Virus record (IMG/VR): IMGVR_UViG_2698536485_000014
DNA length: 13,543 bases
Direction: 5' to 3' (one strand)
DNA from: a virus
Taxonomy: Duplodnaviria > Heunggongvirae > Uroviricota > Caudoviricetes
A model generated the notes under the pieces. The model did no database searches and was not told where the DNA came from. It saw nothing but the letters and a program-made list of their open reading frames with translations. Each line of letters starts with the position of its first letter. Within the stretch, counting starts at the first letter, position 1. Positions 1 to 13,356 of this stretch are shown here, piece by piece. A program made the translations under genes and the position numbers.

Positions 1-252
1 CACGAAAGGCACTCCCCCGAATCAGTTCAGGCTGCGGTCACATCAGCGGGGAAATACCTTTCGGGATAGCTACCCACACAGAAAACCCGCAAAAGAAAAC
101 TGTGTGGATAACTAGCCCAATAGGAGAATTAATCGACCACTCAACGATGATCAGGGTAGTGTTATTTATAAGGCGGCACCGCTACCTGGTCGCCTTTACT
201 TTGGAGGAAAATACGGCAAATCACTTTCACCATTGATTTACGGTATATGTAT

Positions 253-281
253 ATTATATCAGTATTCTCTCAAATTGTCAA
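253..281 (-). promoter_or_regulatory. Consensus sigma70-type promoter firing leftward
   Basis: Reverse complement of 253-281 reads TTGACA, a 17-nt spacer, then TATAAT: both hexamers perfect with optimal spacing. Downstream on the minus strand (1-245) there is no ORF in the window, so the target is an sRNA or a gene beyond the left edge. Confidence 0.4.
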
Positions 282-590
282 CACCCTTATTATATAAATT
301 CTAATAATTAGCGTGGTAACGGTATTTTCAGACCTCTATCAATCCCATCAATACGTCACCCCCACCCTTTAGATGCATACATCCGACCTACTTTGTAGGC
401 TTGGCGTACTGCCAAGGTCGCAGCTATGCGACTCATATCTATCACCACTTTATAAAGCTTGATAGATATCTTTTGATCAATATCAATGTTTTCCGGGGAT
501 TTACCCGGCTATAGTTCGAATCAAGGAAGGGGAGCATTGATAGCACCCCAACCGAACAAACAAATCAACTTCTCGCAAAAGGTGATAGTT

Positions 591-713
591 ATGGGTATCA
601 AGAACAGTGCCAGCGCATGGCAAAAGGCCAGGTTTCATCACCCACACATTATTAAGGCAATTGAGGTGGTTGGAGTGTTAGCCCTGATGTTAGCTCTGTG
701 TGTGGAGGTGTGA
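591..713 (+). CDS. Small hydrophobic peptide (40 aa), possible membrane peptide
   Basis: ATG at 591 lies in frame inside the 486..713 track ORF and is preceded by an AAGGTGA Shine-Dalgarno. The C-terminal half is hydrophobic (AIEVVGVLALMLALCVEV). A 15-nt box TCAACTTCTCGCAAA sits 11 nt upstream of the ATG, as at the 1133 gene. Short ORF, may be non-coding. Confidence 0.3.
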   Translation: MGIKNSASAWQKARFHHPHIIKAIEVVGVLALMLALCVEV

Positions 714-814
714 GATGGGCAAAGGAGGCAAAGCATTTTTAATAAGTCTGGCTATCCTGGATGTTCTACTAATCATGATTGAGCGGAGTTTATGAACAGC
801 ATTGAGAGGAGTTT

Positions 815-1075
815 ATGACGGGGGCTAAAGATATCAGGAGACTGAGGGAAGAGCTGATAGCTGAAATTAAAGCTAAGGCAAAGCAAATGGAGATAGCCGC
901 ACAAATGGATGTAGCGGAGCAGATGTACAAGATGGTTGAGGAGGGAACACCACGACAGGTTATCGCTAAAACCTTCGGTGTGGGGATCGCCACCGTGCAT
1001 AGAAGGCTGAAAGCCTATGCCGACTACCACAATATCGAGAGAAAGGAGGATGGGAGATTCAGGAAAGCTAAATGA
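815..1075 (+). CDS. Small DNA-binding protein with C-terminal helix-turn-helix (86 aa)
   Basis: AGGAG Shine-Dalgarno before ATG 815. Charged coiled-coil-like N-terminus followed by a motif (TPRQVIAKTFGVGIATVHRRLKAY) typical of resolvase/TerS/sigma-type HTH. An 8-codon uORF (792..818) overlaps the start codon via ATGA. Confidence 0.6.
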   Translation: MTGAKDIRRLREELIAEIKAKAKQMEIAAQMDVAEQMYKMVEEGTPRQVIAKTFGVGIATVHRRLKAYADYHNIERKEDGRFRKAK

Positions 1076-1132
1076 TGTAAACGGTCCAACAGGTTATTAA
1101 CTAAACTCAACTTCTCGCAAAGGGGTACCACT

Positions 1133-1720
1133 ATGAACATTAAAACTATCATTGCAGTCATCACTATTGCCTTTAGTGCCAACACCGCAGCTATTGATGT
1201 AGGGGCCGTAAAAGATGCATCTTGTGCTGATAAACTGGCGGCACTTAATGCGGGATTCGATGCACCCCAGGGCTATCAAATGGGGCTATCTCTTAAAAAT
1301 ATTATTCTCCCTATGGAATCTGGCGCTTATGTATACGGAGCGATAGGAAAACTGGAGAAGCCGGAAATTGACCTGCAGGGTGTGAGAGCGAAGATCACAA
1401 AAAGAAATGAAAGCCTTTGTGATGTAGCTGAAATAGCTTTCATATCAGACGATGAAAAATCTATTTTAGCCTTTTGCAAAGATAGCGATGATAATGATCG
1501 CTTCTTTAAGATCACCCACAACAGGCCAATCTCTTTCTACTCTAATGCCACTATGGGCGCGGGTATGCAGTGGCTGAAGAGAGCTAAAGTAACTGAGATC
1601 GACATTGAAAAAGAGGCCAATGCAGGCAGTTATGGATTCTGGAAAGGCTGGACTAAATACACGTTCCAACAATGCGGCATCGATAGTCAGGCCTACGACA
1701 ACGGATTTTGGTTTTTCTAA
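1133..1720 (+). CDS. Secreted/periplasmic protein of unknown function (195 aa), moron-like
   Basis: N-terminus MNIKTIIAVITIAFSANTAA has a classic Sec signal peptide shape (basic residue, hydrophobic core, small-residue cleavage region). Four cysteines in the mature part; aromatic C-terminus (FWFF). GGGG Shine-Dalgarno at 1122-1125; terminator 22 nt downstream. Confidence 0.7.
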   Translation: MNIKTIIAVITIAFSANTAAIDVGAVKDASCADKLAALNAGFDAPQGYQMGLSLKNIILPMESGAYVYGAIGKLEKPEIDLQGVRAKITKRNESLCDVAEIAFISDDEKSILAFCKDSDDNDRFFKITHNRPISFYSNATMGAGMQWLKRAKVTEIDIEKEANAGSYGFWKGWTKYTFQQCGIDSQAYDNGFWFF

Positions 1721-1741
1721 CCTGCTAAGTTAATCCCACCA

Positions 1742-1768
1742 GGGGGCCATCACGGCCCCTTTTTATTT
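1742..1768 (+). terminator. Rho-independent terminator after the 1133..1720 gene
   Basis: Stem GGGGCC (1743-1748), loop ATCAC, stem GGCCCC (1754-1759), followed by TTTTTATTT. Confidence 0.6.
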
Positions 1769-1842
1769 GCCTCTTTGAATTACCCCCTATTTACACTCCT
1801 TTCAGTCCTGATCATCACTCCCTACGGTCATGAGCAATTAAC

Positions 1843-1889
1843 CCCTATTTAAGGGGTATTTAATGGGTATTTAATGCCTATTTATTGAT
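1843..1889. repeat. Four tandem 11-bp AT-rich repeats
   Basis: TATTTAA/TATTTAAT/TATTTAAT/TATTTATT begin at 1846, 1857, 1868 and 1879, an exact 11-bp period. The first unit is embedded in the hairpin CCCCTATTTAAGGGG. Confidence 0.5.
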
Positions 1890-1965
1890 TTAATCCGTTT
1901 TATGCCACAACCGCCCGGTTGACAGAGTAAGAGAGAGGGTGTAACCCTTTTTCGTAACACCAATA

Positions 1966-1981
1966 AAATCAATAAGTTAGC
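1966..1981. repeat. 16-bp exact direct repeat, left copy (AAATCAATAAGTTAGC)
   Basis: Identical 16-mer at 1966-1981 and 9620-9635, with 17 of 18 identity when extended. Rough chance expectation for a 16-mer pair in 13.5 kb is about 0.02. Confidence 0.45.
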
Positions 1982-2356
1982 TTAATAAGCCTTTTCTCTA
2001 TTTTTGTCAAATTTAACATACCCTCAAAAACTGCAAAATCTGGCTGCAAGATTATCTGCAGCTGGATTTCTTACACCTCATTTTGTGGTATCACCCTGAC
2101 TAGTTTGTGCATAAAATGAACAGTTTTTAACATTTCCTCTTCACCTGGTAACCACACAAAAAGCTAAAAACGAGGCACAGATAATCTTAGAGGCCTGTTT
2201 TCTTGTTATCACTCTGGAAACGTCGTAGAAGTGATTTTGATGAAAGATGACCTACCCTATTACACCCCCATTTTTTGTTATCACAATTGCATCCTGTGCG
2301 GTATATGGCTGTGTGCTGAAAGCGGTCTTGGGTGTGGGTGTCAGAAATATCCATTA

Positions 2357-2372
2357 GCGGTATTAATACCCG
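2357..2372. promoter_or_regulatory. Isolated palindrome GGTATTAATACC, related to the CGGTA...TACCG family
   Basis: Perfect 12-bp palindrome at 2359-2370 inside GCGGTATTAATACCCG, with the same half-sites as the array at 3300-3490 but a 1-nt shorter centre. Confidence 0.3.
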
Positions 2373-3157
2373 TCAGATGTTCGTCTGAGGTGCCAGGCAG
2401 GCGCTCCCCCACCTCCCTTTTTTCTTCTAACAATTCTCAAATATCACACCACTGCCCACCACGTTGCTATTATGTTAATTCTTAAGCTTTGCTGTATGTT
2501 GTGCACATTATTTATTCAGGTGCATGTACGTAAATTCTGGGCCTCCTTATCATGATTTTTAAATCAGATTTTGTAGTTCGGTTTCTTAGTGTAGATAAGA
2601 TCTATTATGTTAAATGCAATTTTCCCAACCCTTCAAATCAATGACTTACATGTAAGCATGCACTAACACCCCACACAGCACATTAGACGTGTAGATGTCT
2701 ATATCCCACATTTTTGATTGTTTTGTAGTCATTCCCCTGATCATTTAACCAGTATAGTTTGCTCTCTGCAGACCACAAAATCGGAATTTACATCTGATTA
2801 ACATAATCTGTTAGCATGATCACCATTACCCACACAACAATAACCCCATGCAAGCCTCTTTAGGCAATTTATCGGCGTGTTGGTGTGAACAGTCTTTCAT
2901 GTTCTTTATGTATTCATGACTGCAAGGAATGTATTCATTGTCCTGTGTGAGGGAAGGCTGGACTGCTCCAGGGGCCATAGTTATGATGCCCGGTCAACAT
3001 AGCTGTTGATAAAATCAACGGGTGTTGGCCTGCATATTTCCCACACATGAGAGGAAATCAAAGCAAAGAGAGAGGAGAGAGGTTTGCTAGACGATCAGGA
3101 CTATACAGAGTCAAAATCAAGTCACATTAGAGTCAAATCAGATGCAATCAATCCCCC

Positions 3158-3218
3158 ACCTGTTGGGATTTCCCACATGTTCAACCATACACAGGAGCTA
3201 ACCTGTTGGGATTTCCTA
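3158..3218. repeat. Two 18-bp direct repeats (ACCTGTTGGGATTTCCCA / ...CCTA)
   Basis: 3158-3175 and 3201-3218 match at 17 of 18 positions, 43 bp apart. Confidence 0.5.
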
Positions 3219-3235
3219 CACCTCTTGCACATACC

Positions 3236-3490
3236 CCGGAAGATTTTTCCGGTGTCTCCAACCTGTGAAGAATTTTCACACCTGTAAATCCATACAGCAC
3301 GGTAAAAACTACCGCACAACCTGTCAAAATATTTTACTACTCCCTTTAGTCATACCCCTTTCAGTCATACTCAGGCACCACACCCCGGTAAATATTACCG
3401 TACTCAGGCAGATATAAAGGGGCTAACCACGGCAAATATTTCCCTACTACCTCGGTAAATATTTCCGGTGTACCCCGGTAAAAATTACCG
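3236..3490. promoter_or_regulatory. Phased array of 15-bp palindromic sites (iteron/operator-like)
   Basis: CGGTAAAAACTACCG (3300-3314), CGGTAAATATTACCG (3386-3400), degenerate CGGCAAATATTTCCC (3430-3444), CGGTAAATATTTCCGG (3453-3468), CGGTAAAAATTACCG (3476-3490). Related palindromes CCGGAAGATTTTTCCGG (3236-3252) and GTGAAGAATTTTCAC (3265-3279). Centre-to-centre spacings are 86, 44, 23.5 and 22.5 bp, roughly multiples of two helical turns. Confidence 0.55.
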
Positions 3491-3519
3491 CCTAATAGAT
3501 AAAGTAATAGACCACACAA

Positions 3520-4060
3520 TAGATCCCCCCCTAACCCCCAAGGGGAATGGGGAGGGATCAGAGAGTGGGGAAGGTTTTCTAAGGGAAAAGCTTAACCCAC
3601 AAATGAAAGCCTAAAGAGCATGAGCGACTCTTTAGGCAATCTGTGTGTGGGGGGGGTGACAATGTATTCCATACATGACACGTCACCCAATTGTGTGTGG
3701 GAGTGCCTACGGCACCTTAGCCCATGGCTAAGCCCTTCGGGTCTGTGTGGGTCCGGCGAATGCGTCAGCATGAGGCCCACAATGTGGACCGCTGCCGAAA
3801 GCTTGCCAGCGCCGGAAGGAGGCAGCAAAGAGTCTCCCGCGCTCATGTGTGGGCGTATACGTAAGATATACACTCATAAATCGAAAATAAGCCCCCTAAA
3901 TGGCCTTCTGGCTGCATTAACCTGTGTGAGTAGTGAATTGCATTACCTGATGCTTAAATCGCGTTAGAATCGATTTTAGAGCGCTTAAGGCAAAAAGTGC
4001 CCTCCCTTGTGGGCTTGCTTGTGTCTGCTGTGCAGGCTATGGCACCTATAGCACACCTAA
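3520..4060. other. GC-rich, hairpin-dense non-coding segment; candidate structured RNA or protein-binding array
   Basis: No credible ORF. Perfect 10-bp stem GCCTAAAGAG/CTCTTTAGGC (3609-3637); nested hairpin 3654-3688; GTGCC-TAC-GGCAC (3703-3715); CTTAGCC-CAT-GGCTAAG; a C(TTCG)G tetraloop; GAAA loops. Boxes TGTGTGGG at 3643, 3692, 3744 and 3846, with degenerate copies at 3923 and 4007. Confidence 0.3.
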
Positions 4061-4076
4061 ATGATAATAATTCTCA

Positions 4077-4105
4077 TTGACAATTGGTTGACAATATGAT
4101 AAGAT
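4077..4105 (+). promoter_or_regulatory. Possible sigma70 promoter for the small membrane ORF
   Basis: TTGACA (4077-4082), 17-nt spacer, TAAGAT (4100-4105). A second TTGACA at 4088-4093 lacks a good -10. Confidence 0.3.
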
Positions 4106-4140
4106 TATAAATAGGGGGAGAAACAGATCCGGAGGTCAAT

Positions 4141-4290
4141 GTGGAAATTACAGATGCAATAGCGATCATCAACCTGGCTGTACTGTGGTGCGGTGTTGCC
4201 TACATAGCCGGAGTAACTGCAATCGACAATCTTGAAGAAAAAATGATAGATAAATACAAAAAGATTGTTGACAATTTGACGAATGTCTGA
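4141..4290 (+). CDS. Small membrane protein (49 aa, GTG start), hypothetical
   Basis: GGAGG Shine-Dalgarno at 4131-4135, 5 nt before GTG 4141. The product VEITDAIAIINLAVLWCGVAYIAGVTAIDNLEEKMIDKYKKIVDNLTNV contains one predicted transmembrane helix. Not in the ORF track because it is under 60 aa. Confidence 0.3.
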   Translation: MEITDAIAIINLAVLWCGVAYIAGVTAIDNLEEKMIDKYKKIVDNLTNV

Positions 4291-4296
4291 TAAAAT
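4268..4296 (+). promoter_or_regulatory. sigma70-type promoter upstream of the plus-strand gene module
   Basis: TTGACA (4268-4273), 17-nt spacer, TAAAAT (4291-4296). Predicted start near 4303, about 120 nt before ATG 4423. Confidence 0.5.
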
Positions 4297-4422
4297 ATAA
4301 AGCATAGGGTAATTCTCATCATAGTGAATTTCCTTTAGTAGACTGGCGGGGGCTTGTCTTAAGTTCCCGTTTCTTTTTAACCATATATCGCACAGGTTAG
4401 TGAGCTGACAGGAGATTGAATC

Positions 4423-4638
4423 ATGGCTAAAACCGGACCGATAAGCCAGCTAGTAAACTGGACTACTGACGAAATCGTCGAGAACGTGCTTAAAGGTAAC
4501 TTTCGAAAAACTTCCGTTTATGCATTTATTCGTAAACACAAAGGAGAATATCCACACATTGAAGCGGCAATTTTAGAACTGAACCGTCTCCGCATCGAGC
4601 GTGAGCTGGCTAAATACACCAACAACATTAATAAATAA
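4423..4638 (+). CDS. Small basic protein (71 aa), possible regulator
   Basis: AGGAG Shine-Dalgarno 8 nt before ATG 4423. First gene of a compact co-directional cluster. No recognisable family by eye. Confidence 0.55.
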   Translation: MAKTGPISQLVNWTTDEIVENVLKGNFRKTSVYAFIRKHKGEYPHIEAAILELNRLRIERELAKYTNNINK

Positions 4639-4651
4639 TTATGGGGGAACT

Positions 4652-5518
4652 ATGGCAAACAACTATGGGGAAAATTTTACTCCCCTTTTTAAACGTTTCA
4701 TCAAATACATTTTTAAAAATCCGATTGCAAAAACTACAACCAATAAAGAAAGATTTCACTTAAATTTGTTGGAAATGGCAATTTACGGTGAAATGGCAAG
4801 TTTCCATTTAAACGGTAAAGAAATATTTATCTCTGAGCAAACCTTAGCAGATGATTATGATGCCACAGAAAAAACAGTAAGGTCGGCTATCAAAACATTA
4901 GAGGCTGCAGGACTAATATTTGTAAAACGGAGCAGAGGTAAGTCTAATCATTACAAACTACTTATTACTCCTGATCAGCTTGGCAAGATGTGTGATGAGC
5001 AGGGTATTAAAACCTCCGCAAGTGTGGGATACAGCAAAGAGGCCTCCGATAATCAACAGGAAGCCCCAAAACAAGCCACACAGCAGCCTGAAAAGCCCGA
5101 GGCAATGCAATCCCCTTCCCAACCTAAAAAAGAACGCAGAGAACGCCGTAGAGACGCTGGCAAACGTGAAATAGATGAGCACGGTTATCCGATTCTGACA
5201 AGCGATGAAATGAATGCTAGATATAAAGTAATTCAGGCCGCATTTAAAGATCAGAAGAGAATTAAATTATCTGAATTGCGTGATACATTTTACGGGCCGG
5301 AGGTGATGGATAAAATTAAAGGCACTATTCCCGATAAAATCTGGAAAGAGAAAGATTATTGGCACCTGACAGAGCAGGCCCTTAAGGTGGCTCAACATGT
5401 GGTTAAAAGAGGCAAAACAATTACCCTTGATTCTATTAGTCATGGCTATGATGCACCGAAAGAAAGATTGTGGAACAACTGCAAGCTTGTAAATGGTGAA
5501 TTGACAATTACAAAATAA
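4652..5518 (+). CDS. Winged-helix DNA-binding protein (289 aa), possible replication initiator or organiser
   Basis: GGGGGA Shine-Dalgarno before ATG 4652; the track ORF 4601..5518 begins at an upstream GTG with no Shine-Dalgarno. N-terminal wHTH-like segment (ISEQTLADDYDATEKTVRSAIKTLEAAGLIFVKRSRGK), a low-complexity Q/P/E/K-rich linker, then a C-terminal domain. Architecture resembles iteron-binding initiators such as lambda O; this is an inference. Confidence 0.6.
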   Translation: MANNYGENFTPLFKRFIKYIFKNPIAKTTTNKERFHLNLLEMAIYGEMASFHLNGKEIFISEQTLADDYDATEKTVRSAIKTLEAAGLIFVKRSRGKSNHYKLLITPDQLGKMCDEQGIKTSASVGYSKEASDNQQEAPKQATQQPEKPEAMQSPSQPKKERRERRRDAGKREIDEHGYPILTSDEMNARYKVIQAAFKDQKRIKLSELRDTFYGPEVMDKIKGTIPDKIWKEKDYWHLTEQALKVAQHVVKRGKTITLDSISHGYDAPKERLWNNCKLVNGELTITK

Positions 5519-5557
5519 ATATTCTTATTTTTTACAGTATTCTAAAGGAAATTTAAA

Positions 5558-5704
5558 ATGTATGGCGATTTTGATTATTACCTGGAAAAGGAAAAATATT
5601 TTGAAGATGAACTATCACAACATTTTTCATATTGGGAAGAATATTGTGGTTGGTTAGCTGAAGATCCAGCAGATGAAGAAAATGATTCTGACATCCCTTA
5701 TTAA
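5558..5704 (+). CDS. Small acidic protein (48 aa), hypothetical
   Basis: AAGGAA Shine-Dalgarno before ATG 5558. Product MYGDFDYYLEKEKYFEDELSQHFSYWEEYCGWLAEDPADEENDSDIPY is strongly acidic and aromatic. Below the ORF-track size cut-off. Confidence 0.35.
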   Translation: MYGDFDYYLEKEKYFEDELSQHFSYWEEYCGWLAEDPADEENDSDIPY

Positions 5705-5808
5705 TTAATATCCCCTGTTATCCCCAAATAAACTAAATAAACTAATTACATATAGAACTAGAACTAGATTGATTTCTCTTTAATGTTAAATTGACTGGAG
5801 AATTAATC

Positions 5809-6294
5809 ATGTTCAAATCTGATCTTTCTGATTCCCAATTTGAAAAACTGGTAGCACTGCAGAAATATCTCCCCAGTGATGATCAACCAACACGACAGGC
5901 TAAGCACTTATTAGTCGAGGGCTTTACCCCTGAATTCGTGGCGGAATACACAGGCGTTAAACTTGAGAAAGTCCAAAAACTATATAATGAGTCCTGGAAT
6001 CCACGGTGTAGAGTTCCCCTCAGTGTCTACAACGAAATAGATAGAGATAGAAATGTCTTCGAAGATCGCCGCCGCAAATCTCTTTTAATGTGGAATTGCG
6101 GGATGAATATTGAAGAGATAGCAAAAGAATTAAAAGTAACCTGCTTTCATATCTGGGGCTTGTTGAGTGAAATCCTGCCACGTAAGGAGCTTAATCAACG
6201 TTTGCCTAAGCCCGGTAGTCGTGCTTATCGCGAATTTATATTCATCTACCGCCGCCATAGCAATAAAGTCCGGAAAGCAATGCAGCGCAAATAG
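5809..6294 (+). CDS. Hypothetical protein (161 aa) with two HTH-like segments
   Basis: GGAG Shine-Dalgarno before ATG 5809; the track start 5791 is a TTG. Segments FTPEFVAEYTGVKLEKVQKLY and GMNIEEIAKELKVTCFHIWGLL look like helix-turn-helix motifs. Basic C-terminus. Confidence 0.55.
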   Translation: MFKSDLSDSQFEKLVALQKYLPSDDQPTRQAKHLLVEGFTPEFVAEYTGVKLEKVQKLYNESWNPRCRVPLSVYNEIDRDRNVFEDRRRKSLLMWNCGMNIEEIAKELKVTCFHIWGLLSEILPRKELNQRLPKPGSRAYREFIFIYRRHSNKVRKAMQRK

Positions 6295-6336
6295 CTTATA
6301 GCCTTCACATATGCCGCAAGTTATTGATTCTGCCGT

Positions 6337-6352
6337 CCGGTAAATATGCCGG
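6337..6352. promoter_or_regulatory. Extra copy of the palindromic operator (CCGGTAAATATGCCGG)
   Basis: Same CGGTAAATAT core as the array at 3300-3490, placed 31 nt upstream of ATG 6383 in the gap between two genes. Confidence 0.4.
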
Positions 6353-6382
6353 ATGGCTCATATAAATTTTAAGGAATTCCAA

Positions 6383-6826
6383 ATGTCTCAAATCGCTAAA
6401 TTACTATCCCAGGTTATCAAAGCTTTCGACGCTGAAGATTCAAAAGTTCGCCAGGATCTTTTAGATGGCAAGTTTACCAACACCCTGGCATTTACCCGTG
6501 ACAAAGAGCACTTCTTAAAACACAGACACCACGCTTTTGCTGAATGCAAGTCCGCTAATGGTGATGTTTTCTATGTCGATTTGGTGGTTATGGCATGTAG
6601 GCTGTGGATGATTCAGGACCTTATGCGCCAACACGGTGATGATCCTCTTATCAGCATGTGGAACAGCGCCCAGGATGGCTTTGTGATTGCTGCCTTATCC
6701 AAATCAATGATTGAGGCAGAAGGGGCAAGCCTTCAGAACATGGCAGATCTCTTTGAAATAAGCGTAGGAATGATGCAGACCATGCTCCAAGCTGTCAAAC
6801 CTCTCAAACTGGTTAATCTTGATTAA
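6383..6826 (+). CDS. Hypothetical protein (147 aa), predicted mainly helical
   Basis: AAGGA Shine-Dalgarno 7 nt before ATG 6383; the track start 6353 lacks a Shine-Dalgarno and overlaps the operator. Composition is rich in A, L, M, Q, K and E, unlike a beta-rich tail tube protein. Confidence 0.55.
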   Translation: MSQIAKLLSQVIKAFDAEDSKVRQDLLDGKFTNTLAFTRDKEHFLKHRHHAFAECKSANGDVFYVDLVVMACRLWMIQDLMRQHGDDPLISMWNSAQDGFVIAALSKSMIEAEGASLQNMADLFEISVGMMQTMLQAVKPLKLVNLD

Positions 6827-6885
6827 GCTATTGATAAATAAGCACTCCCCATTTTTGGGGGGTGCATCAATGAGAGGATATGCCT

Positions 6886-7269
6886 ATGAATATTGAAGAA
6901 ATGATAGTTGAATTCGAAGAGGGTGATTTCCTGGAAGATGGGGAGTTTAGTTACTCCCATTTTAAACAGGCGTTATTTAGCAGCGATGATAAACCACACG
7001 TTAGTGATCTTAACGACGATGATTTATGTCGTTGGGTGTGCACCCGCTTATATGAGGATGGAAAATATACAGGCCAAAACTTTCCAAATCTCTATTTCAA
7101 AGCACAAACATTTGAGGAAGGGCAAAGAGTGAAAAACCTGGTCGATCAAATGCTGTCAGCCGGATATTTGCATAAAGAATTATTAAATCCTAAAGCTGAA
7201 AGCAAGCGCCATTATATTTTTGTGTGGACTATTGGCGATAAGTGTCCACTAAGACGCAAAGGCAAATGA
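6886..7269 (+). CDS. Hypothetical acidic protein (127 aa)
   Basis: GAGAGGA Shine-Dalgarno 7 nt before ATG 6886. Acidic N-terminus. Second gene upstream of the tape-measure gene. Confidence 0.5.
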   Translation: MNIEEMIVEFEEGDFLEDGEFSYSHFKQALFSSDDKPHVSDLNDDDLCRWVCTRLYEDGKYTGQNFPNLYFKAQTFEEGQRVKNLVDQMLSAGYLHKELLNPKAESKRHYIFVWTIGDKCPLRRKGK

Positions 7270-7270
7270 T

Positions 7271-7507
7271 ATGAACACCTACGAAAAGATTTATCAAAAA
7301 CTGGTTAAGGACTCCGAAGAGACGCCCGAAGGGGTGACAATAGGTCACCTACCAGAGGCAGCGAAAGAGGGGTCCACCATTATTAAAAGTGGCACCCACA
7401 CAGAAGGCCTCTCAATCGAAGAGCTGGCGGAGAAATATAATATTGATAAAGAGGCCCTGAAAAGGGCTATTTCATTATCAAAATCTTTAAGACAGGGTGA
7501 GGTATAA
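7271..7507 (+). CDS. Hypothetical protein (78 aa)
   Basis: ATG 7271 lies 1 nt after the upstream TGA. The gene ends 1 nt before the tape-measure start, so the three genes are tightly packed. Confidence 0.5.
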   Translation: MNTYEKIYQKLVKDSEETPEGVTIGHLPEAAKEGSTIIKSGTHTEGLSIEELAEKYNIDKEALKRAISLSKSLRQGEV

Positions 7508-7508
7508 A

Positions 7509-9608
7509 ATGGCAATGAAGGAAGTAGCCAAACTAACAAACGTTATTTACTGGGATTCTGATAAATCCTCCTGGCGAAAAGAAGTTAAACGGCTTGAGGA
7601 TTATAAAAAATCCTGGAAGAAAGCTACCGACGATATAGCTAAAGCGGATTTTAAATCGAATCAGGCTGTGCTCAGAACACAAAGAACACGCGCTAAGGTG
7701 GAAGAGCAGATCGCCAGAGCACAGAAGAAACAACGTGCTCAGGCTGTCAGCCGTCTGACCGGGGGCAATAATCCGGAGCTCTCCTCTATGCGCAAGTTCT
7801 ATCAGCAGCAAGCCAGAGAGGCCGCCAGACAACAAAAACTGTTAGATCGTAGTGTTGGAGATGTTCAGCACAGAAAAGCACGTGTAGGGGCCAACAGTGC
7901 ACGAATCAGCAGCATGTTTGATGGCTCCCTGGTTGCTCAGTTCCAAAGCAGGATCCAGAGAGTTAATGCTGATTATGCTAAAGGGGCTATCAACCTGCAG
8001 GCCTATAATCAGAAAATGGCTCGGCTCAGGGCTGAAATGAAGATGGCAACAGCAGAGGCCGGAAAATTTCAGAGCAGACTGGATAAACTGGCATCAGGTG
8101 CCAGCAAGGTGCATGACAACCTGGGCAAAATCAACTCCACACTAGGCAAGATAGCCATTGGCCTTACTGCCGCTGGCTGGGGTGTTCAGCGTGCTGTTAG
8201 TGGTGCTATGGGTAGCCTTGCAGATCGCAACAGTGCCTACTTCGGTTTGATGGCACAGAACAAGGATGATAAAGCCAAGACTGATCAGCAGATGGCTTTT
8301 ATCAAGAACACAGCCTACACCTATGGGATGGATGAGCGGGAGATGCAAGGGGGCTACATGCGCTTTGCTGCAGCTACTCCCACCATGAAGGAATCTGATA
8401 AGCAGGCTCTTTTTGAGGCTATGGCTATTAAAGGTCGCTCAGTGGGTGCTACTGGCGAGCAACAGAACAGGGCGCTTGTTGCGGTCCAACAAATGGCTTC
8501 AAAGGGAAAAGTTATGGCGGAAGAGCTGCGGGGCCAACTGTCAGAAGCCTTTGCAGGCTCACAACAGGATTTTCAACAGGCCGCTATTGATGCCGGAATC
8601 ATCAAGAATACCCAGGAATTCGATAAAGCCCTTAAAGATGGCAAAATCACCCTGGATAAGCTACTCCCTTCTTTGGTGAAAATCTGGTCTGCAGCCAAGA
8701 ATACGAAAGCCTTTGCTGAATCCATGAAACAGCCAGAAGTAGCAATGCAGCGCATGAAAAACAGCTTTAACGAGCTGGCGATTCAGTTTATGGGTGTTGT
8801 GGATCCTGCGGATGGCGTTATTAGCTTATCTGAATCTCTGATCTCCATCTTTGAAGACCTCACCACTGATATGGACGGCAGCGGGAGCGCGGCAAAACAG
8901 TTCGGTGAGGCAGTCGGGGCTGCCATGCGTGAGATCATGTATTGGGTAGGCTTCGCTAAGGGATATATTGAGGTCAAGGCTAAAGAGTTCGGCATGACCG
9001 GATCAGAGGTTGGCGAGCTTATCGGAAAATTGGTAGTCGGCTTAGCTGGTCTGAAAGTTATTACTACACTGCTTTCCCCTCTAACCGGATTTGTTTCACT
9101 TGTCACCCAACTGATAGCTTTGTTAGGTAAAATCCCTGGTATGAGCAAGCTTCTGGCTTCTGCCTCAGGTGGAACGGCAACAGGAGCAGCGGTCATCAGT
9201 GCAGGCTCTAACGCTGAAAGAAGTTTCATTGATGGCAAGACGCAGGAAATGAGTAAGGAGAACTCAAAACAGGGTGCTTTGTTTGAGCTGGGAAGATTTG
9301 TTAGCAATGCTGGCGCACTGTTCACACCTGGCGGTGATACTGGTCCTTTGTTCGATCAGGTCAGAGGCTGGTTTAATAAAGGGCCAACATTGACAGTAGA
9401 CACTGGCATCAGACCTACACCAACAGGCGGCATAGCTATCCAGAATGGTGGATATCAACCAGTCCAAGTAAATGTAGCCCCACAAGGTGAGATTTCCGGC
9501 AAATGGGAGATAACCATTGATGAGGGTGGAATTGCCAGGGTGATCCAGAAGGAAGTCAGCGATCAGTTGGATTGGAAAGCCACACAGGAATCTAACCAGC
9601 TTTTCTAA
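7509..9608 (+). CDS. Tail tape-measure-domain protein (699 aa)
   Basis: GGTGAGG Shine-Dalgarno 6 nt before ATG 7509; the track start 7497 is a GTG. Coiled-coil, Q/R/K-rich N-terminus. Central segment ...QQMASKGKVMAEELRGQLSEAFAGS...KALKDGKITLDKLLPSL... matches my recollection of the conserved tape-measure domain motif. Hydrophobic segments (LIGKLVVGLAGLKVITTLLSPLTGFVSLVTQLIALLG) and a Gly-rich C-terminus are also typical. Confidence 0.6.
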   Translation: MAMKEVAKLTNVIYWDSDKSSWRKEVKRLEDYKKSWKKATDDIAKADFKSNQAVLRTQRTRAKVEEQIARAQKKQRAQAVSRLTGGNNPELSSMRKFYQQQAREAARQQKLLDRSVGDVQHRKARVGANSARISSMFDGSLVAQFQSRIQRVNADYAKGAINLQAYNQKMARLRAEMKMATAEAGKFQSRLDKLASGASKVHDNLGKINSTLGKIAIGLTAAGWGVQRAVSGAMGSLADRNSAYFGLMAQNKDDKAKTDQQMAFIKNTAYTYGMDEREMQGGYMRFAAATPTMKESDKQALFEAMAIKGRSVGATGEQQNRALVAVQQMASKGKVMAEELRGQLSEAFAGSQQDFQQAAIDAGIIKNTQEFDKALKDGKITLDKLLPSLVKIWSAAKNTKAFAESMKQPEVAMQRMKNSFNELAIQFMGVVDPADGVISLSESLISIFEDLTTDMDGSGSAAKQFGEAVGAAMREIMYWVGFAKGYIEVKAKEFGMTGSEVGELIGKLVVGLAGLKVITTLLSPLTGFVSLVTQLIALLGKIPGMSKLLASASGGTATGAAVISAGSNAERSFIDGKTQEMSKENSKQGALFELGRFVSNAGALFTPGGDTGPLFDQVRGWFNKGPTLTVDTGIRPTPTGGIAIQNGGYQPVQVNVAPQGEISGKWEITIDEGGIARVIQKEVSDQLDWKATQESNQLF

Positions 9609-9619
9609 TATTGTGATCT

Positions 9620-9635
9620 AAATCAATAAGTTAGC
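9620..9635. repeat. 16-bp exact direct repeat, right copy (AAATCAATAAGTTAGC)
   Basis: Identical to 1966-1981; lies 12 nt after the tape-measure stop codon. Confidence 0.45.
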
Positions 9636-9655
9636 CTGACCGGATAAACTCCAGG

Positions 9656-9690
9656 CAAGAAAAAAGCCCCTAAGTGTTAACAAAGGGGCT
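9656..9690 (-). terminator. Rho-independent terminator on the minus strand
   Basis: Stem AGCCCCT (9665-9671) pairs with AGGGGCT (9684-9690) around a 12-nt loop. On the minus strand the stem is followed by TTTTTCTTG. On the plus strand no T-run follows. Confidence 0.45.
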
Positions 9691-9719
9691 CTTCTCCGGT
9701 ATCCTTTTGATGCGGGGCG

Positions 9720-9767
9720 AACCTGCTAACAAAAATCAACCTCTCGCGAGACTAATGTTAGCAGGTT
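9720..9767. repeat. 12-bp perfect inverted repeat with 24-nt loop
   Basis: AACCTGCTAACA (9720-9731) pairs with TGTTAGCAGGTT (9756-9767). The loop contains the palindrome TCTCGCGAGA and a degenerate copy of the leader box (TCAACCTCTCGCGAG). Confidence 0.5.
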
Positions 9768-10108
9768 GCCGGAAGGTAAGTCAACTCCGGCCTATAAACC
9801 TTAAAGCGACTATAAAATCGCCCCGCCAATTGTGATGATCCGACCTTTGAGGCGGGTCCGGTGCCCAGGGGGTGCAGTGATGCACAAACCAGGCAACGAT
9901 AAACAGGCTAACAGTGATAGCGGCGCTCAATCAGCGCACTAAATCCTAACCAGTCCGGGAAAGAGGCTGGCTCTATCGACCGCTCATGCACGGGACAATG
10001 CATACCTGATAAAGGATTCTCACAAGGGACCAATCGCGAGAAAAGAAGTGGAAAGGGGCTGATTTGTGGTGTATCACTACGGCCTCAAAAGAACACTATT
10101 ACCTTTTT

Positions 10109-10567
10109 TCAGCCTCTCCCAACATTTGACCAGTATTTGATTGCACCGATCAAATCATCATAGTGGCGCATTGCATCATTGAAGCCTTTATAGCTTGCCC
10201 ATTGTGGGGAGACTTTGTTATTGCTGAATTGCCCACTAATCAGGATAGTCTCCAAAATGTCGGCGTATCGCTTGCCAATTCGCTTTCTGACGGCCTCAGA
10301 GCTTCCACCCTTTACGATTGCATTAATCAGGGCTTTTGTGTGTCTCAGGCTCTCATAGAGCATTGCAGCGTGGGCAGATTCCATAAAGGAGCGCTTAGGC
10401 AGATCACCCCACCCCTCAGAGTGGATAGCTGCCAGTGTGGCGTAATTCAGGCCGCTATAGTGCTTTCCGTCATCCCAGCCAACCGCTACACCTTCCATCT
10501 GTGAGAGCTCTTTATGCAGCTTATCCATCATGCGCTTGTCTATGGTGCAACGGACTTTCGGACTCAT
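10109..10567 (-). CDS. Hypothetical protein (152 aa), possibly virion morphogenesis-associated
   Basis: GGAG Shine-Dalgarno 8 nt before the minus-strand ATG at 10567. The start overlaps the upstream gene stop as ATGA (10564-10567). Function assigned by position only. Confidence 0.55.
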   Translation of the reverse strand: MSPKVRCTIDKRMMDKLHKELSQMEGVAVGWDDGKHYSGLNYATLAAIHSEGWGDLPKRSFMESAHAAMLYESLRHTKALINAIVKGGSSEAVRKRIGKRYADILETILISGQFSNNKVSPQWASYKGFNDAMRHYDDLIGAIKYWSNVGRG

Positions 10568-11367
10568 TTGTTGATCTCCGTGATGTCATCGAGCAACATG
10601 TTGGCCTTATCAATCATCGTTTCGTGGAACTCATTCGACACAACAGACTTATCACCTGCGGCAATCTTTCCCGCTGCCTCTCCCTGTGCATATTCCCCGC
10701 GATGCTTAGCCCTGGTTGATTTCGTAGCAGCATTGCCAGCGTTACTACCCTCTTTAGCACTGTTAACAGCACCCTTTTGCTGTGTTTTATTCACCTTCTT
10801 ACTGTTAGTGAAAACTCCGGCATTTTCGACCATCTTCACCTTGAAGGTGCGGAATTCTTCAAAAGTGCAATCAATAGTGATGCAGTCACCGGAGGAAGAG
10901 CTACGCTTAACTTCACATTTCGTCATGATGAAGTTCTCAAGAAGTCCGGCATCTTCACTCACCAGGCTAACCAGCTGGCGCTTGTCTCTCATTTCCATAA
11001 GAGCACGCACAGCGGCGGCGGGGCGCATGGATTCAAGGGGATTATCTGGATCAGTGTTCCGGTCGATGTAGTTCTCTTTCCGGATAATGTGAGGGGAAGA
11101 GGTAATAATGCCCGTAAAGCTGACAGATTTATCTTTAATGACGGCATGGTCTGACATGGTGGTGCCATCCTCGACCGCATAGCTCGATTTCTCAACAGGG
11201 AACGAATAGCTGACATCAGAGATAGAGTCAAAGAAGATAGCCACATTATCGGTATAGTTGAAGCCATCCATCATATTTTTGTTTTGTGAATATCCCCCAC
11301 ACATAACAGTGAATGCAGGAGATCTCGACTCAGCTTGTTTTGCAGCTGTCAGAGCATCACTAGCCAT
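10564..11367 (-). CDS. Hypothetical protein (about 268 aa), Ser/Thr/Val-rich with low-complexity C-terminus
   Basis: Preferred start is ATG at 11367, with GGAGG 10 nt upstream. The alternatives are ATG 11376 (too close to the Shine-Dalgarno) and the track TTG at 11421. The composition suggests a beta-rich structural protein; this is an inference. Confidence 0.55.
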   Translation of the reverse strand: MASDALTAAKQAESRSPAFTVMCGGYSQNKNMMDGFNYTDNVAIFFDSISDVSYSFPVEKSSYAVEDGTTMSDHAVIKDKSVSFTGIITSSPHIIRKENYIDRNTDPDNPLESMRPAAAVRALMEMRDKRQLVSLVSEDAGLLENFIMTKCEVKRSSSSGDCITIDCTFEEFRTFKVKMVENAGVFTNSKKVNKTQQKGAVNSAKEGSNAGNAATKSTRAKHRGEYAQGEAAGKIAAGDKSVVSNEFHETMIDKANMLLDDITEINK

Positions 11368-11561
11368 AGTAAACATGCCTCCAAATTGGTCCACTTCATG
11401 GATTTGGCTAAACTCGTGCAAATAGCCCTCGTCTTGAGGGTGTTAAAGCCAAACCTGCAAAAGATGCAGGCAAAATAGAACTTATCGTTGCCCTGCTTAA
11501 AATCTGCAGAAAATACAGGGCAGTTATTCGTTAGAATCGCTTATAGCTCTTCCCGAGAGCG

Positions 11562-11813: not shown

Positions 11814-11845
11814 AAAAGACACCTCAAAAAACTTAAGACGGGGAT

Positions 11846-11910
11846 AATAAAAAAGGGAAGAGGGAAAGACCTATCCCCGATCTCTCACCTCTTCCCTTTG
11901 CTTTTATTTG
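11846..11910 (-). terminator. Terminator/attenuator after the major capsid gene, possibly bidirectional
   Basis: Stem AAAGGGAAGAGG (11852-11863) pairs with CCTCTTCCCTTT (11888-11899) around a 24-nt loop. The minus-strand transcript is followed by TTTATTAT; the plus strand is followed by GCTTTTATTT. Confidence 0.5.
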
Positions 11911-11927
11911 GCCTTCGAAGAAGGACC

Positions 11928-12971: not shown

Positions 12972-12982
12972 CTTCAACCTCC

Positions 12983-13318: not shown

Positions 13319-13356
13319 TTGATCACCTGCGATTTAAATTAACTCCCCTCAAAGAG

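What the first reader, a model, noticed from the sequence alone, without database searches (positions are those of the whole stretch)
3520..4060. GC-rich, hairpin-dense segment with recurring TGTGTGGG boxes: candidate structured noncoding RNA
Within an AT-rich neighbourhood this stretch carries many perfect stems (10-bp at 3609-3637, nested 6-bp at 3654-3688, GTGCC-TAC-GGCAC, CTTAGCC-CAT-GGCTAAG), UUCG- and GNRA-type loops, and TGTGTGGG boxes starting at 3643, 3692, 3744 and 3846 at intervals of 49, 52 and 102 bp, with degenerate copies at 3923 and 4007. This density is not expected of a simple promoter region. It may be a large structured RNA of the kind sometimes found in phages, or a multi-site protein-binding scaffold.
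Basis: seen in the sequence. Interest (0 to 1): 0.65.

Follow-up and report, generated by a model that had tools for sequence, protein, structure and literature searches.

The report
Hairpin-cassette array beside a satellite origin
This non-coding stretch is a real array of interchangeable small stem-loops separated by the 8-letter box TGTGTGGG; it lies next to the likely replication origin of a 13.5-kb plasmid-like phage satellite of E. coli, shares its core with rV5-like phages, and is not yet shown to act as RNA rather than folded DNA.

Summary
TGTGTGGG occurs 11 times in the window against 0.3 expected, four of them on the + strand at 3644, 3694, 3744 and 3846. The listed stems exist, and the region folds better than shuffles (z = -4.0). 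No Rfam family matches and no reading frame is conserved.

The window is a complete circular E. coli "plasmid" carrying divergent homologues of rV5 tail genes, so it is probably an undescribed phage satellite. In 12 relatives the region is a mosaic. Hairpin cassettes of about 50 nt, bounded by the box, are present, absent or swapped. Their stems keep pairing through double changes (7 of 12 pairs).

The cassettes end in a roughly 100-nt core. Positions 3781-3842 of that core are 84-87% identical to an intergenic element in 119 rV5-like phages. There too it sits beside palindromic repeats, an AT-rich tract and a small replication-initiator-like gene. One 6-bp stem differs between satellite and phage by compensatory changes at three pairs.

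RNA versus DNA is open. Stems are almost purely Watson-Crick, 3-nt loops dominate, both strands fold equally well, and GC skew switches at about 3500.

My best reading (0.4) is an origin-flanking single-strand signal carrying a helper-recognition core. A structured RNA comes next (0.3).

The parts
3157..3491 (.). Context: arrays of iteron-like repeats just left of the finding. They comprise ACCTGTTGGGATTTCCCACA-type repeats x3 and CCGGTAAATATTACCG-type palindromes x6. This is the presumed binding region for the Rep-like initiator.
   Evidence: families D1, D2, D6, D15. The repeat type differs between satellite relatives. GC skew is negative here and turns positive at about 3525.
3494..3590 (+). 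AT-rich TAATAGATAAAGTAATAGA..CACAATAGAT motif, followed by a C-run then G-run leader (CCCCCCCTAACCCCCAAGGGGAATGGGGAGGGATCAGAGAGTGGGG).
   Evidence: Nearly invariant in the 10 satellites that carry it and in s190. MB4926 lacks it.
3597..3651 (+). Domain H0: CCCACA (3597-3602), a 10-bp hairpin (3609-3637), then box 1 TGTGTGGG (3644-3651). CCCACA can pair with the TGTGGG of the box. On the - strand the hairpin followed by TTTCATTTGT looks like a terminator.
   Evidence: The hairpin is kept with a different loop in MB4926.
3652..3701 (+). Cassette 1: nested hairpin GGGTGAC[ATGTAT-TCC-ATACAT]GTCACCC, then box 2 (3694-3701).
   Evidence: Present in 8 of 12 relatives and absent as a unit in pE275a, RM10740, s190 and Z1322.
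3702..3751 (+). Cassette 2: three adjacent hairpins (GTGCC-TAC-GGCAC, CTTAGCC-CAT-GGCTAAG, CCC-TTC(G)-GGG), then box 3 (3744-3751).
   Evidence: Six sequence variants of this three-hairpin architecture exist in relatives. 91.7% of cells are paired and 7 of 12 pairs changed on both sides; slid controls give 19-50%.
3752..3853 (+). Core, type A. It contains the AT-GCGTCAGC-AT mini-hairpin, AATGTGGA, a 6-bp stem GCTGCC/GGCAGC that encloses GAAAGCTTGCCAGCGCC-GGAA-GG, then GAGTCTCCCGCGC and box 4 (3846-3853). Positions 3781-3842 are homologous to rV5-like phages.
   Evidence: 84-87% identity to 119 Vequintavirus records. The compensatory stem is ACCGAC/GTCGGT in phage. There is one copy per element or phage. 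An alternative type B core occupies the same place in 4 satellites.
3854..3889 (+). Variable AT-rich linker after the core. It comes in alternative versions that begin GTGTGGGCGTATAC, GGGTGCACGCAC or GTGCATGCAC, and all end ..ACACTCATAAATC.
3890..3960 (+). Nearly invariant block GCCCCCTAAATGGCCTTCTGGCTGCATTAAC..GTGAATTGCATTACCTGAT. The GCCCCTAAAT part is also kept in the phages.
4077..4105 (+). Right boundary: an invariant sigma-70-like promoter (TTGACA-17-TAAGAT with TG) that drives the 49-aa ORF (4141-4290) and the Rep-like operon (Rep at 4601-5518).

Best explanation
The segment is the structured right flank of the satellite's replication and control region. It is not a protein gene and matches no described RNA family.

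Anatomy. Interchangeable cassettes of about 50 nt, each holding one to three short hairpins, are each closed by the single-stranded G/T-rich box (N)TGTGTGGG. The series ends in a roughly 100-nt core that the satellite shares with the origin-like intergenic region of rV5-like phages.

Proposed mechanism (inferred). When the initiator opens the adjacent iteron and AT-rich region, the G-rich + strand to the right becomes the exposed lagging-strand template. Its hairpins fold and keep single-strand-binding protein off. They present the boxes and the core as entry or priming signals for a replisome component, in the manner of plasmid and phage single-strand initiation (ssi) signals. Because the core copies the phage's own element, the satellite could be recognised by the helper's machinery during infection.

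Shown here: the boxes, the stems and their covariation, the cassette mosaicism, the homology to phage, the shared neighbourhood (initiator-like gene, repeats, AT-rich tract), the GC-skew switch, and the absence of an ORF or an Rfam match.

Inferred: origin function, action as single-stranded DNA, priming, and helper recognition.
For: 1. Position. The segment lies between iteron-like arrays (3157-3491) and the promoter of the operon that encodes a Rep-like protein (phrog_270 and O-like initiators, E = 3e-12).
2. Skew. Cumulative GC skew of the whole circle has its minimum at about 3450-3525, and skew turns from -0.2/-0.4 to positive there.
3. Box orientation. Box orientation flips around the same point. 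All four + strand copies lie at 3644-3853, and the nearest copies to the left (3040, 2829, 2670, 641, 73) are all on the - strand. Each cluster therefore sits on the presumptive lagging-strand template.
4. Same layout in phages. The homologous element follows a 116-aa HTH_36 protein that several records annotate as a replication initiation protein (25% identical to the N-terminus of the satellite Rep, E = 1e-6). It also follows four palindromic repeats and about 130 nt of AT-rich DNA.
5. Satellite s190 carries a second iteron set, and it is again followed by a phage-like GTGTCGGCCC hairpin and cassettes.
6. The stems are real, as shown by covariation.
7. DNA-like character of the stems:
   - They are almost entirely Watson-Crick, and both strands fold equally well.
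   - No G.U wobble appears among single mismatches in near-perfect + strand stems.
   - 3-nt loops dominate.
   - All three core types carry a GCG(N)NAGC motif at the same place: GCGTCAGC, GCGATAGC, or GCGAAGC in MB4926.
8. Precedent. Such mini-hairpin motifs are described at the G4 complementary-strand origin, at RSF1010 ssiA and in N4 promoters (PMC13037366).
9. The core is the only non-coding DNA shared with the 92 kb of rV5 held here.
Against: - No experiment or coverage data locates an origin here, in the satellite or in rV5.
- Gene orientation also contributes to GC skew.
- The boxes are not consistently preceded by the CTG that E. coli primase uses. The preceding triplet is CTG, TTG, ATG or GTG.
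- Two boxes lie inside genes (7395, 11296), and 7395 is on the wrong strand for the model.
- Similar hairpin cassettes occur about 3 kb from the iterons (371-436, and an insertion near 553 in relatives). The cassettes are therefore not confined to the origin.
- The core has + strand G.U pairs (U.G in the outer stem, G.U in Aya and IMGVR), and the + strand is more stable in 12 of 12 satellites. Both fit an RNA as well.
- Perfect palindromes could arise from template-switch correction rather than from selection.
Confidence: 0.4

Rival explanations
1. A structured non-coding RNA: about 330-430 nt in satellites and about 260 nt in the phages. It would be transcribed rightward (+ strand) from a promoter in the AT-rich stretch next to the repeats. 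Possible roles are an origin or primer transcript, a regulator of the downstream rep operon, or a sponge whose single-stranded UGUGUGGG boxes bind a protein or pair with the CCCACACA sites found elsewhere in + strand transcripts.
For: - Stems are kept by compensatory changes.
- The orientation matches the flanking genes in both satellites and phages.
- Conservation in phages starts sharply at GTGTCGGCCC, as at a transcript start, even in the divergent IMGVR relative whose upstream region is unrelated.
- The core has + strand G.U and U.G pairs that would be A.C on the other strand.
- GGAA/GTAA loops fit GNRA.
- The + strand is more stable in 12 of 12 satellites.
- Seven CCCACACA sites on the + strand complement the four boxes, including a 12-nt perfect match between 3040-3051 and 3842-3853.
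Against: - There is no Rfam match even at E <= 10.
- No promoter-like or + strand terminator-like site brackets the region.
- G.U pairs are almost absent in the cassettes, and single mismatches are C.A.
- 3-nt loops dominate, and GUCA and GAUA are not GNRA.
- Both strands fold equally well.
- The site at 3040 does not covary with box 4 in relatives that replace that box by GGGTGCACGCAC.
- A - strand transcript is equally conceivable: a promoter-like site at 4094-4067 and the H0 hairpin acting as a terminator.
Confidence: 0.3
2. A double-stranded DNA scaffold. The TGTGTGGG boxes would be repeated binding sites for a protein shared by, or common to, helper and satellite. Candidates are a primase-helicase or initiator, as with the P4 alpha octamer repeats, or a small terminase subunit, which would make the shared core plus boxes a packaging (pac) signal that lets the satellite be packaged by rV5. 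The hairpins would be spacers.
For: - The box is strongly enriched: 11 against 0.3 expected, with 9 of 11 in non-coding DNA.
- It is conserved in all satellites and present 2-3 times in the phage element.
- Boxes recur at about 50-bp spacing.
- The satellite has no terminase or portal gene and so must borrow packaging.
- The core is the only non-coding DNA shared with rV5.
- One rV5-like phage is inferred by PhageTerm to use headful (pac) packaging (PMC13211470).
Against: - It does not explain why cassette stems keep pairing while their sequences change.
- Cassette lengths of 46-55 bp, and one of 97 bp, give no strict helical phasing.
- The box is only mildly enriched in 92 kb of rV5: 8 against about 2.8 expected.
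- The phage element lies about 4 kb from the large terminase gene, with the tRNA cluster and other genes between them.
Confidence: 0.15
3. Mosaic intergenic hairpin repeats with no dedicated sequence-specific function. These would be small palindromic cassettes that spread and are lost by recombination at short repeats, comparable to REP/BIME elements or the stem-loop cassettes of T4-type phages. They would be kept perfect by template-switch (quasipalindrome) correction and would act at most as generic transcript ends or insulators.
For: - Cassettes are gained and lost as units between elements that are otherwise 91-96% identical.
- Similar cassettes sit at unrelated non-coding places: 371-436, and a 48-nt insertion near 553 in relatives.
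- Stems are perfectly Watson-Crick with no wobble intermediates, as a mutational correction process would produce.
Against: - The core is conserved between satellites and 119 phages and is single-copy.
- The box, the leader and the block at 3890-3960 are nearly invariant while the flanks vary.
- There is no match on E. coli chromosomes.
Confidence: 0.1
4. A small protein is encoded across the core: either the annotated rV5 gp074 (56 aa, + strand, GTG start inside the box) or a roughly 33-50-aa ORF on the - strand.
For: - The gp074 frame is open in all 8 E. coli phages examined, and a 46-aa ORF in the same frame exists in the window (3724-3864).
- Indels among the phages are mostly multiples of 3 (3, 3 and 18 nt).
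- All six variable core sites among the phages fall in one codon phase.
Against: - In the gp074 frame, and in its mirror frame on the - strand, those six sites are second codon positions, so every change is non-synonymous.
- That frame has a stop in the IMGVR relative and in every type B core.
- A 1-nt indel just before the core separates two groups of type A satellites.
- The - strand ORF carries an in-frame TAA in FV3, JEP1 and Aya and has no start codon in IMGVR.
- The + frame in which the variable sites are third positions has a stop just upstream and no start codon.
- The annotation pipeline calls no CDS here in any of the 10 plasmid records.
Confidence: 0.03

Closest known systems
Single-strand initiation (ssi) signals: G4-type complementary-strand origins and RSF1010 ssiA/ssiB
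   Same: - Clusters of short hairpins (three in G4 oric) next to or inside an origin.
- The functional unit is folded single-stranded DNA.
- They contain GCG(N)NAGC or CCGAAGG-type mini-hairpins (PMC13037366).
- In RSF1010 two signals face outward on opposite strands beside iterons, a GC-rich tract and an AT-rich tract (my own recollection). That matches the strand flip of the boxes seen here.
   Different: - There is no sequence similarity.
- The CTG start triplet of E. coli primase is not conserved before the boxes.
- Here the units are repeated 2-5 times, are swapped between relatives, and are punctuated by a conserved 8-mer.
- No priming activity has been tested.
P4 satellite ori/crr octamer repeats, and P4/P2 sharing of cis sites
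   Same: - A satellite whose replication region carries many copies of an 8-bp box in both orientations.
- A satellite that shares a cis-acting DNA site with its helper (cos in P4/P2). Both points rest on my own recollection of the P4 literature.
   Different: - The P4 boxes (TGTTCACC) bind P4's own alpha protein, and no hairpin cassettes are involved.
- Here the shared site lies beside the origin-like region, and the helper would be a virulent 137-kb myovirus.
ColE1 RNA II and other origin or leader RNAs (including the P4 CI RNA leader)
   Same: A long, highly folded untranslated region upstream of replication functions. It has a G-rich tract facing a C-rich tract, and short complementary boxes that could pair.
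   Different: - ColE1 replicons need no Rep protein or iterons, whereas this element has both.
- No promoter or terminator pair was found.
- There is no antisense partner.
- The one testable box pairing did not covary.
REP/BIME and other mosaic intergenic palindromic elements
   Same: Mosaic combinations of small palindromic units with short conserved linkers. Copy number varies between close relatives, and they sit in intergenic DNA.
   Different: - No similarity to E. coli REP sequences and no chromosomal copies.
- The units are shorter (13-17 nt hairpins).
- The array ends in a single-copy core conserved in a phage genus.
Large ornate phage-associated RNAs (GOLLD, ROOL, HEARO) and other Rfam families
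   Same: Large size, many hairpins, GNRA-like loops, association with phages and, in rV5, proximity to a tRNA cluster.
   Different: - No covariance-model match at gathering thresholds or at E <= 10.
- There are no long-range helices or pseudoknots supported by covariation.
- Wobble pairs are almost absent.

Membership tests
Any Rfam 15 RNA family (including GOLLD, ROOL, HEARO, SRP, tmRNA, 6S, riboswitches) | Covariance-model score at or above the family gathering threshold | tested here: not met
   There are 0 matches in the whole window at gathering thresholds. At E <= 10 across 1700-4450, the only hits are two terminator-driven ones at 4294-4384, outside the finding.
G4-type / plasmid ssi priming signal | Cluster of stable hairpins in single-stranded DNA at or beside an origin | tested here: inconclusive
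   The hairpins are real and covary. They are adjacent to iterons, an initiator-like gene and a GC-skew switch. The origin itself is inferred, not mapped.
G4-type / plasmid ssi priming signal | Conserved 5'-CTG-3' primase start just 3' of the hairpins | tested here: not met
   Across cassettes and relatives the triplet before TGTGGG is CTG, TTG, ATG or GTG.
G4-type / plasmid ssi priming signal | Primase-dependent primer synthesis on the cloned single strand, dependent on orientation | not testable with these tools
   This needs an M13-delta-ori complementation assay or an in-vitro primase assay.
Iteron-type protein-binding repeat array (for example P4 ori/crr) | A short motif repeated far above chance in the replication region, in direct and inverted orientation | tested here: met
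   11 copies against 0.3 expected, and 9 of the 11 lie in non-coding DNA. Orientation flips around about 3100-3600. The motif is conserved in relatives.
Iteron-type protein-binding repeat array (for example P4 ori/crr) | A cognate protein binds the repeat | not testable with these tools
   No candidate can be assigned. The motif is shared by all satellites and the phages, while the Rep proteins and the larger iterons vary.
ColE1-type RNA II primer | Replication independent of a plasmid initiator protein; promoter about 550 nt upstream; antisense RNA I | tested here: not met
   The element encodes a Rep-like initiator and carries iterons. No promoter-like site brackets the region.
P4-type RNA immunity (CI RNA with seqA/seqB/seqC) | Short complementary sequences in one transcript whose pairing is maintained | tested here: inconclusive
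   Complementary 8-12-mers exist. However, the 3040 site stays CCCACACA in relatives whose box 4 is replaced.
REP/BIME elements | Similarity to the REP consensus and many chromosomal copies | tested here: not met
   A distant blastn against 5,426 E. coli genomes gives 0 places on chromosomes; all 9 places are on plasmids.
Protein-coding gene | A reading frame with start and stop conserved across relatives, and variation biased to synonymous sites | tested here: not met
   Frames are broken by 46-55-nt cassette indels, by a 1-nt indel and by stops in the type B, IMGVR, FV3, JEP1 and Aya sequences. In the one frame that stays open in the E. coli phages, the variable sites are second codon positions.

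The most novel reading that the evidence does not exclude
The core plus box array may be a previously undescribed cis element through which a plasmid-borne satellite plugs into a virulent rV5-like myovirus. It could act as a modular non-coding RNA, or as a folded-DNA signal that the helper's replication or packaging machinery recognises. The alternative core types A and B would then set helper specificity, and the number of cassettes would tune competition with the helper. This would be the first defined helper-recognition element for a satellite of a large lytic E. coli phage, and a new family of structured nucleic-acid element.
Probability: 0.25. Interest if true: 0.8.

Novelty: new variant of a known kind. 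Interest (0 to 1): 0.6.

Why it matters
If the reading is right, this is the piece of DNA or RNA through which a small plasmid-like parasite of E. coli couples itself to rV5-like phages, a group widely used in phage therapy and biocontrol. It would give a concrete, testable handle on three questions: how satellites of virulent phages sense or exploit their helper, where rV5-type phages start replication, and how short hairpin cassettes can be exchanged as modules while keeping their fold. Even on the conservative reading it adds a conserved structured element, found in 119 phage genomes and about 12 satellites, that no RNA or repeat database describes.

Tried and rejected
- **Rfam.** Gathering thresholds and E <= 10 gave nothing in the region. 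There are no tRNA or tmRNA genes.
- **More homologues.**
  - IMG/VR pattern scans found one divergent phage and then none.
  - The metagenome scan found only 2 more satellites.
  - The capsid protein has no relatives in the species-representative genomes.
  - A core pattern there gave 17 hits in unrelated phyla. They score like chance with the core model.
  - Diversity is therefore limited to 12 satellites and 9 phage variants.
- **Type B core.** It has no phage counterpart. The type A core model does not recognise it beyond chance, at 16-17 bits.
- **Cassette model.** It found no convincing extra copies in the window. The best extra hits have E of about 0.1 at 387-416 and 376-436.
- **SRP RNA resemblance.** CCGGAAGGAGGCAGC resembles 4.5S RNA, but the similar bases covary away in the phage and Rfam's SRP model does not match. 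Rejected.
- **CRISPR-repeat mimicry.** GAGTCTCCCGCGC resembles the start of the I-E repeat as I recall it, but the rest of that repeat is absent. Rejected.
- **DnaA boxes.** The boxes have 1-4 mismatches to TTWTNCACA (my reading of the sequence). The only perfect DnaA box is at 103-111.
- **General rV5 promoter element.** There are only 8 copies in 92 kb of rV5. Rejected.
- **Choosing the strand.** Folding energy does not decide it. Counting G.U against A.C mismatches gave contradictory signals.
- **Coding frames.** Examined and rejected.
- **Literature.** Searches for the satellite family, rV5 satellites and rV5 non-coding RNA or origin found nothing relevant.
Full report

Yes. Exact TGTGTGGG lies on the + strand at 3644, 3694, 3744 and 3846, giving intervals of 50, 50 and 102. 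The whole window has 11 exact copies against 0.30 expected, and 0 of 200 shuffles reach that number. With one mismatch there are 34 against 9 expected.

The listed stems are all present:
- the 10-bp hairpin at 3609-3637
- the nested pair at 3654-3688
- GTGCC-TAC-GGCAC at 3703-3715
- CTTAGCC-CAT-GGCTAAG at 3716-3732

GC rises to 0.50-0.61 here, against 0.33-0.45 nearby.

A plain count of short perfect hairpins is not significant on its own (3 against 1.4). The folding energy of 3590-3910 is significant: z = -4.0, with 0 of 100 shuffles as good.

**2. What the window is**

The 13,543-base window is colinear over its whole length with complete circular E. coli "plasmids" of 13.2-13.9 kb. One 39.6-kb record is a near-trimer. 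Two metagenome contigs also match.

The element encodes:
- a Rep-like initiator (4601-5518; phrog_270 and O-like)
- a tape-measure protein and a Dit-like tail protein
- a neck/tail-completion protein
- a capsid protein, as named in the record annotations

It has no terminase, portal or integrase gene. Three of its proteins are divergent homologues of rV5 proteins: gp056 (45% identity), gp048 (48%) and the tape measure gp049 (26%).

I therefore read it as a plasmid-borne satellite of rV5-like (Vequintavirus) phages. I found no description of it in the literature.

About a quarter of the element is non-coding. One gap is 1720-4140, which holds the finding. The other runs from 13319 across the start of the window to 814.

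**3. Comparative anatomy in the satellites**

Across 12 relatives the finding region is far more variable than the rest of the element: 78-94% identity with partial coverage, against 91-96% elsewhere. The variation is modular.

The order is the same everywhere:
1. iteron-like repeats, whose type differs between satellites
2. an AT-rich TAATAGATAAAG..CACAATAGAT motif
3. a C-run then G-run leader
4. hairpin H0, then a box
5. zero to three cassettes, each ending in (N)TGTGTGGG
6. a core
7. a variable AT-rich linker
8. a nearly invariant block (3890-3960)
9. an invariant sigma-70-like promoter (4077-4105) for a 49-aa ORF and the rep operon

Cassettes are present, absent or exchanged precisely at the boxes. 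The three-hairpin cassette (window 3702-3751) exists in six sequence versions that keep the same architecture. On their alignment 91.7% of cells pair and 7 of 12 pairs changed on both sides. Partners slid by 1-3 columns pair in only 19-50% of cells.

The core comes in two versions. Type A is found in the window and seven others. Type B is found in four. The two share only the flanks AATGTGGA and GAGTCTCCCGCGC.

**4. The link to phages**

Window 3781-3842 matches an intergenic element in 119 Vequintavirus records at 84-87% identity, and nothing else in the phage collection. It is the only non-coding similarity to the 92 kb of rV5 that I held.

In the phages the element lies in a roughly 640-nt gap. 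The gap follows a 116-aa HTH_36 protein that several records annotate as a replication initiation protein. That protein is 25% identical to the N-terminus of the satellite Rep (E = 1e-6). After it come four palindromic repeats (CTGTCCGTnnTACGGACAC), about 130 nt of AT-rich DNA, and then the GC-rich structured part with two or three boxes.

A divergent relative from IMG/VR has unrelated upstream DNA but keeps the structured part from GTCGGCCC onward.

Between satellite and phage, the 6-bp stem GCUGCC/GGCAGC becomes ACCGAC/GUCGGU. RNAalifold counts three pairs changed on both sides. It also predicts a small junction: GUGG/CCGC outside, CC-GNAA-GG and GCU/AGC inside, and GAG-NNN-CUC.

A covariance model of the core finds exactly one copy per satellite or phage. 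It scores type B no better than chance controls. Type B has no phage counterpart in the collection.

Satellite s190 carries a 490-nt insertion with a second iteron set. That set is again followed by a phage-like GTGTCGGCCC hairpin and cassettes. The association "repeats plus AT-rich DNA, then structured array" therefore recurs three times.

**5. RNA or DNA?**

For RNA:
- The orientation matches the flanking genes.
- Conservation has a sharp 5' boundary in the phages.
- GNAA loops are present.
- The core has a few + strand G.U pairs: U.G in the outer stem, which is C-G in IMGVR, and G.U in Aya and IMGVR.
- The + strand is more stable in 12 of 12 satellites.

Against RNA, or for DNA-level hairpins:
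- There is no Rfam match.
- No promoter or + strand terminator brackets the region.
- Both strands give z between -2.9 and -4.0.
- Cassette stems are essentially all Watson-Crick.
- Among near-perfect stems, single mismatches on the + strand are C.A (8) and never G.T, although five of the eight lie in the ambiguous C/G-run leader.
- 3-nt loops dominate.
- All three core types carry a GCG(N)NAGC motif at the same spot. MB4926 switches GCGATAGC to GCGAAGC. Both forms are extra-stable DNA mini-hairpin motifs of the kind reported at the G4 complementary-strand origin, RSF1010 ssiA and N4 promoters (PMC13037366).

A - strand transcript is also conceivable. H0 followed by TTTCATTTGT looks like a terminator on the - strand, and there is a weak - strand promoter at 4094-4067.

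I could not settle the strand or the molecule.

**6. Origin context**

Cumulative GC skew of the circle is lowest at about 3450-3525, and the local skew flips sign there. Box orientation flips around the same point. The + strand copies lie at 3644-3853. The - strand copies lie at 3040, 2829, 2670, 641 and 73, plus 7395 and 11296 inside genes. All are conserved in four complete relatives.

This symmetry, the iterons, and the initiator-like genes in both satellite and phage are what make me favour an origin-flanking signal acting on the exposed single strand.

Caveats:
- Gene orientation also shapes skew.
- CTG is not conserved before the boxes.
- Similar cassettes occur far from the iterons. 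A four-hairpin cassette at 371-436 is present in three elements and absent in two, and a 48-nt three-hairpin insertion lies near 553 in two relatives.
- Perfect palindromes can be produced by template-switch correction without any selection.

**7. Coding potential**

Rejected.
- Cassette indels of 46-55 nt and a 1-nt indel break every long frame in the satellites.
- The annotated rV5 gp074 frame is open in eight E. coli phages. However, all six variable core sites are second codon positions in it, it has a stop in IMGVR, and it is closed in every type B core.
- The small - strand ORF has in-frame stops in FV3, JEP1 and Aya and no start codon in IMGVR.
- The + frame in which the variable sites are third positions has no start codon.

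That all six variable sites share one codon phase remains unexplained.

**8. Verdict**

| Reading | Confidence |
|---|---|
| Structured flank of a replication/control region, acting as folded single strand, with a helper-shared core | 0.40 |
| Structured RNA | 0.30 |
| Double-stranded protein-binding or pac array | 0.15 |
| Functionless mosaic palindromes | 0.10 |
| Small protein | 0.03 |

The element is in no database I could search. I rate it a new variant of known kinds, with interest 0.6.

Noticed in passing
window 1-13543 (whole): The window is a complete 13.5-kb circular E. coli 'plasmid'. It has capsid, decoration-like, neck, Dit-like and tape-measure genes but no terminase, portal or integrase. 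Three of its proteins are 26-48% identical to rV5 gp049, gp056 and gp048. It is probably an undescribed plasmid-borne satellite of rV5-like phages. Its size is close to one tenth of the 130-143 kb helper genomes.
   Followed up: partly
window 13319-13543 and 1-814: A second non-coding gap of about 1 kb lies between divergent genes. It holds a perfect DnaA box (103-111, - strand), two - strand TGTGTGGG boxes (73, 641) and a four-hairpin cassette at 371-436. The cassette is present in the window, pE275a and RM10740 and absent in both metagenome relatives. In pE275a and RM10740 one of its stems has a C.A mismatch on the + strand, which would be G.U on the - strand.
   Followed up: partly
L001 (pE275a) and L021 (ERZ506993), at the position of window ~553: A 48-nt three-hairpin cassette (AGACACCCAAAGGGGTGACTGAAAGTCACCTGGCATAGCCAGTGAAAG) is inserted between GATAG and CACCC. 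CACCC is repeated at both ends, as in an insertion with a short duplication or a recombination at a repeat.
   Followed up: no
window 4268-4384: A second strong promoter-like site (TTGACA-17-TAAAAT with TG, 4268-4296) is a partial duplicate of the one at 4077-4105. It is followed by a terminator-like hairpin with a T run (4345-4371) just upstream of the 71-aa ORF and rep. This could be a roughly 75-nt small RNA or an attenuator for the rep operon. The only (weak) Rfam hits fall here.
   Followed up: no
window 1846-1887: There are three tandem 11-bp repeats (TATTTAAGGGG / TATTTAATGGG / TATTTAATGCC) in the left part of the large non-coding gap. This may be another protein-binding array, for example for partition.
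   Followed up: no
window 3157-3491 and the same place in L001, L005-L011, L021, L022: The iteron-like repeat arrays differ in sequence type between satellites: CCGGTAAATATTACCG, ACCTGTCAAAATATTTTACTAC, or ATATGCTGGNATTTCCNACATAT. The Rep-like protein sequences also differ between records, which suggests matched initiator and iteron specificities.
   Followed up: no
L006 (strain 190 plasmid) 560-1050: A roughly 490-nt insertion after the G-run leader brings a second set of three iteron-like repeats (TATCAACATATCAATNTGATATA). It also brings a 5' hairpin (GTGTCGGCCC..) that otherwise occurs only in the rV5-like phages.
   Followed up: partly
L002 (NZ_CP043822, 39.6 kb): This record is about three tandem copies of the element, and the copies are not identical (some genes are truncated or altered). 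It may be a real multimer or an assembly artefact.
   Followed up: no
A5 columns 7, 10, 13, 37, 55, 58 (window 3785-3836): All six core positions that vary among the nine phage sequences fall in the same codon phase. Changes are mostly synonymous in a + strand frame that has no start codon. I have no explanation for this.
   Followed up: partly
L017 580-750 (rV5 gp074 / ORF 78): The annotated 56-aa rV5 gene gp074 overlaps the conserved core. It starts with the GTG of the box and is probably a spurious ORF call.
   Followed up: partly
phage collection records MG0656xx: Eighteen records labelled 'Campylobacter phage' (host C. jejuni) carry the rV5-type element and flanking genes at 95-100% identity to E. 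coli rV5-like phages. The labels are probably contamination or misassignment.
   Followed up: no
L003 3130-3223 and A3 columns 640-728: The roughly 90 nt between the structured element and the next phage gene (gp073) are almost invariant in all nine phages, including the divergent IMGVR relative. This stretch is more conserved than the structured part itself and may be a leader or promoter element.
   Followed up: no
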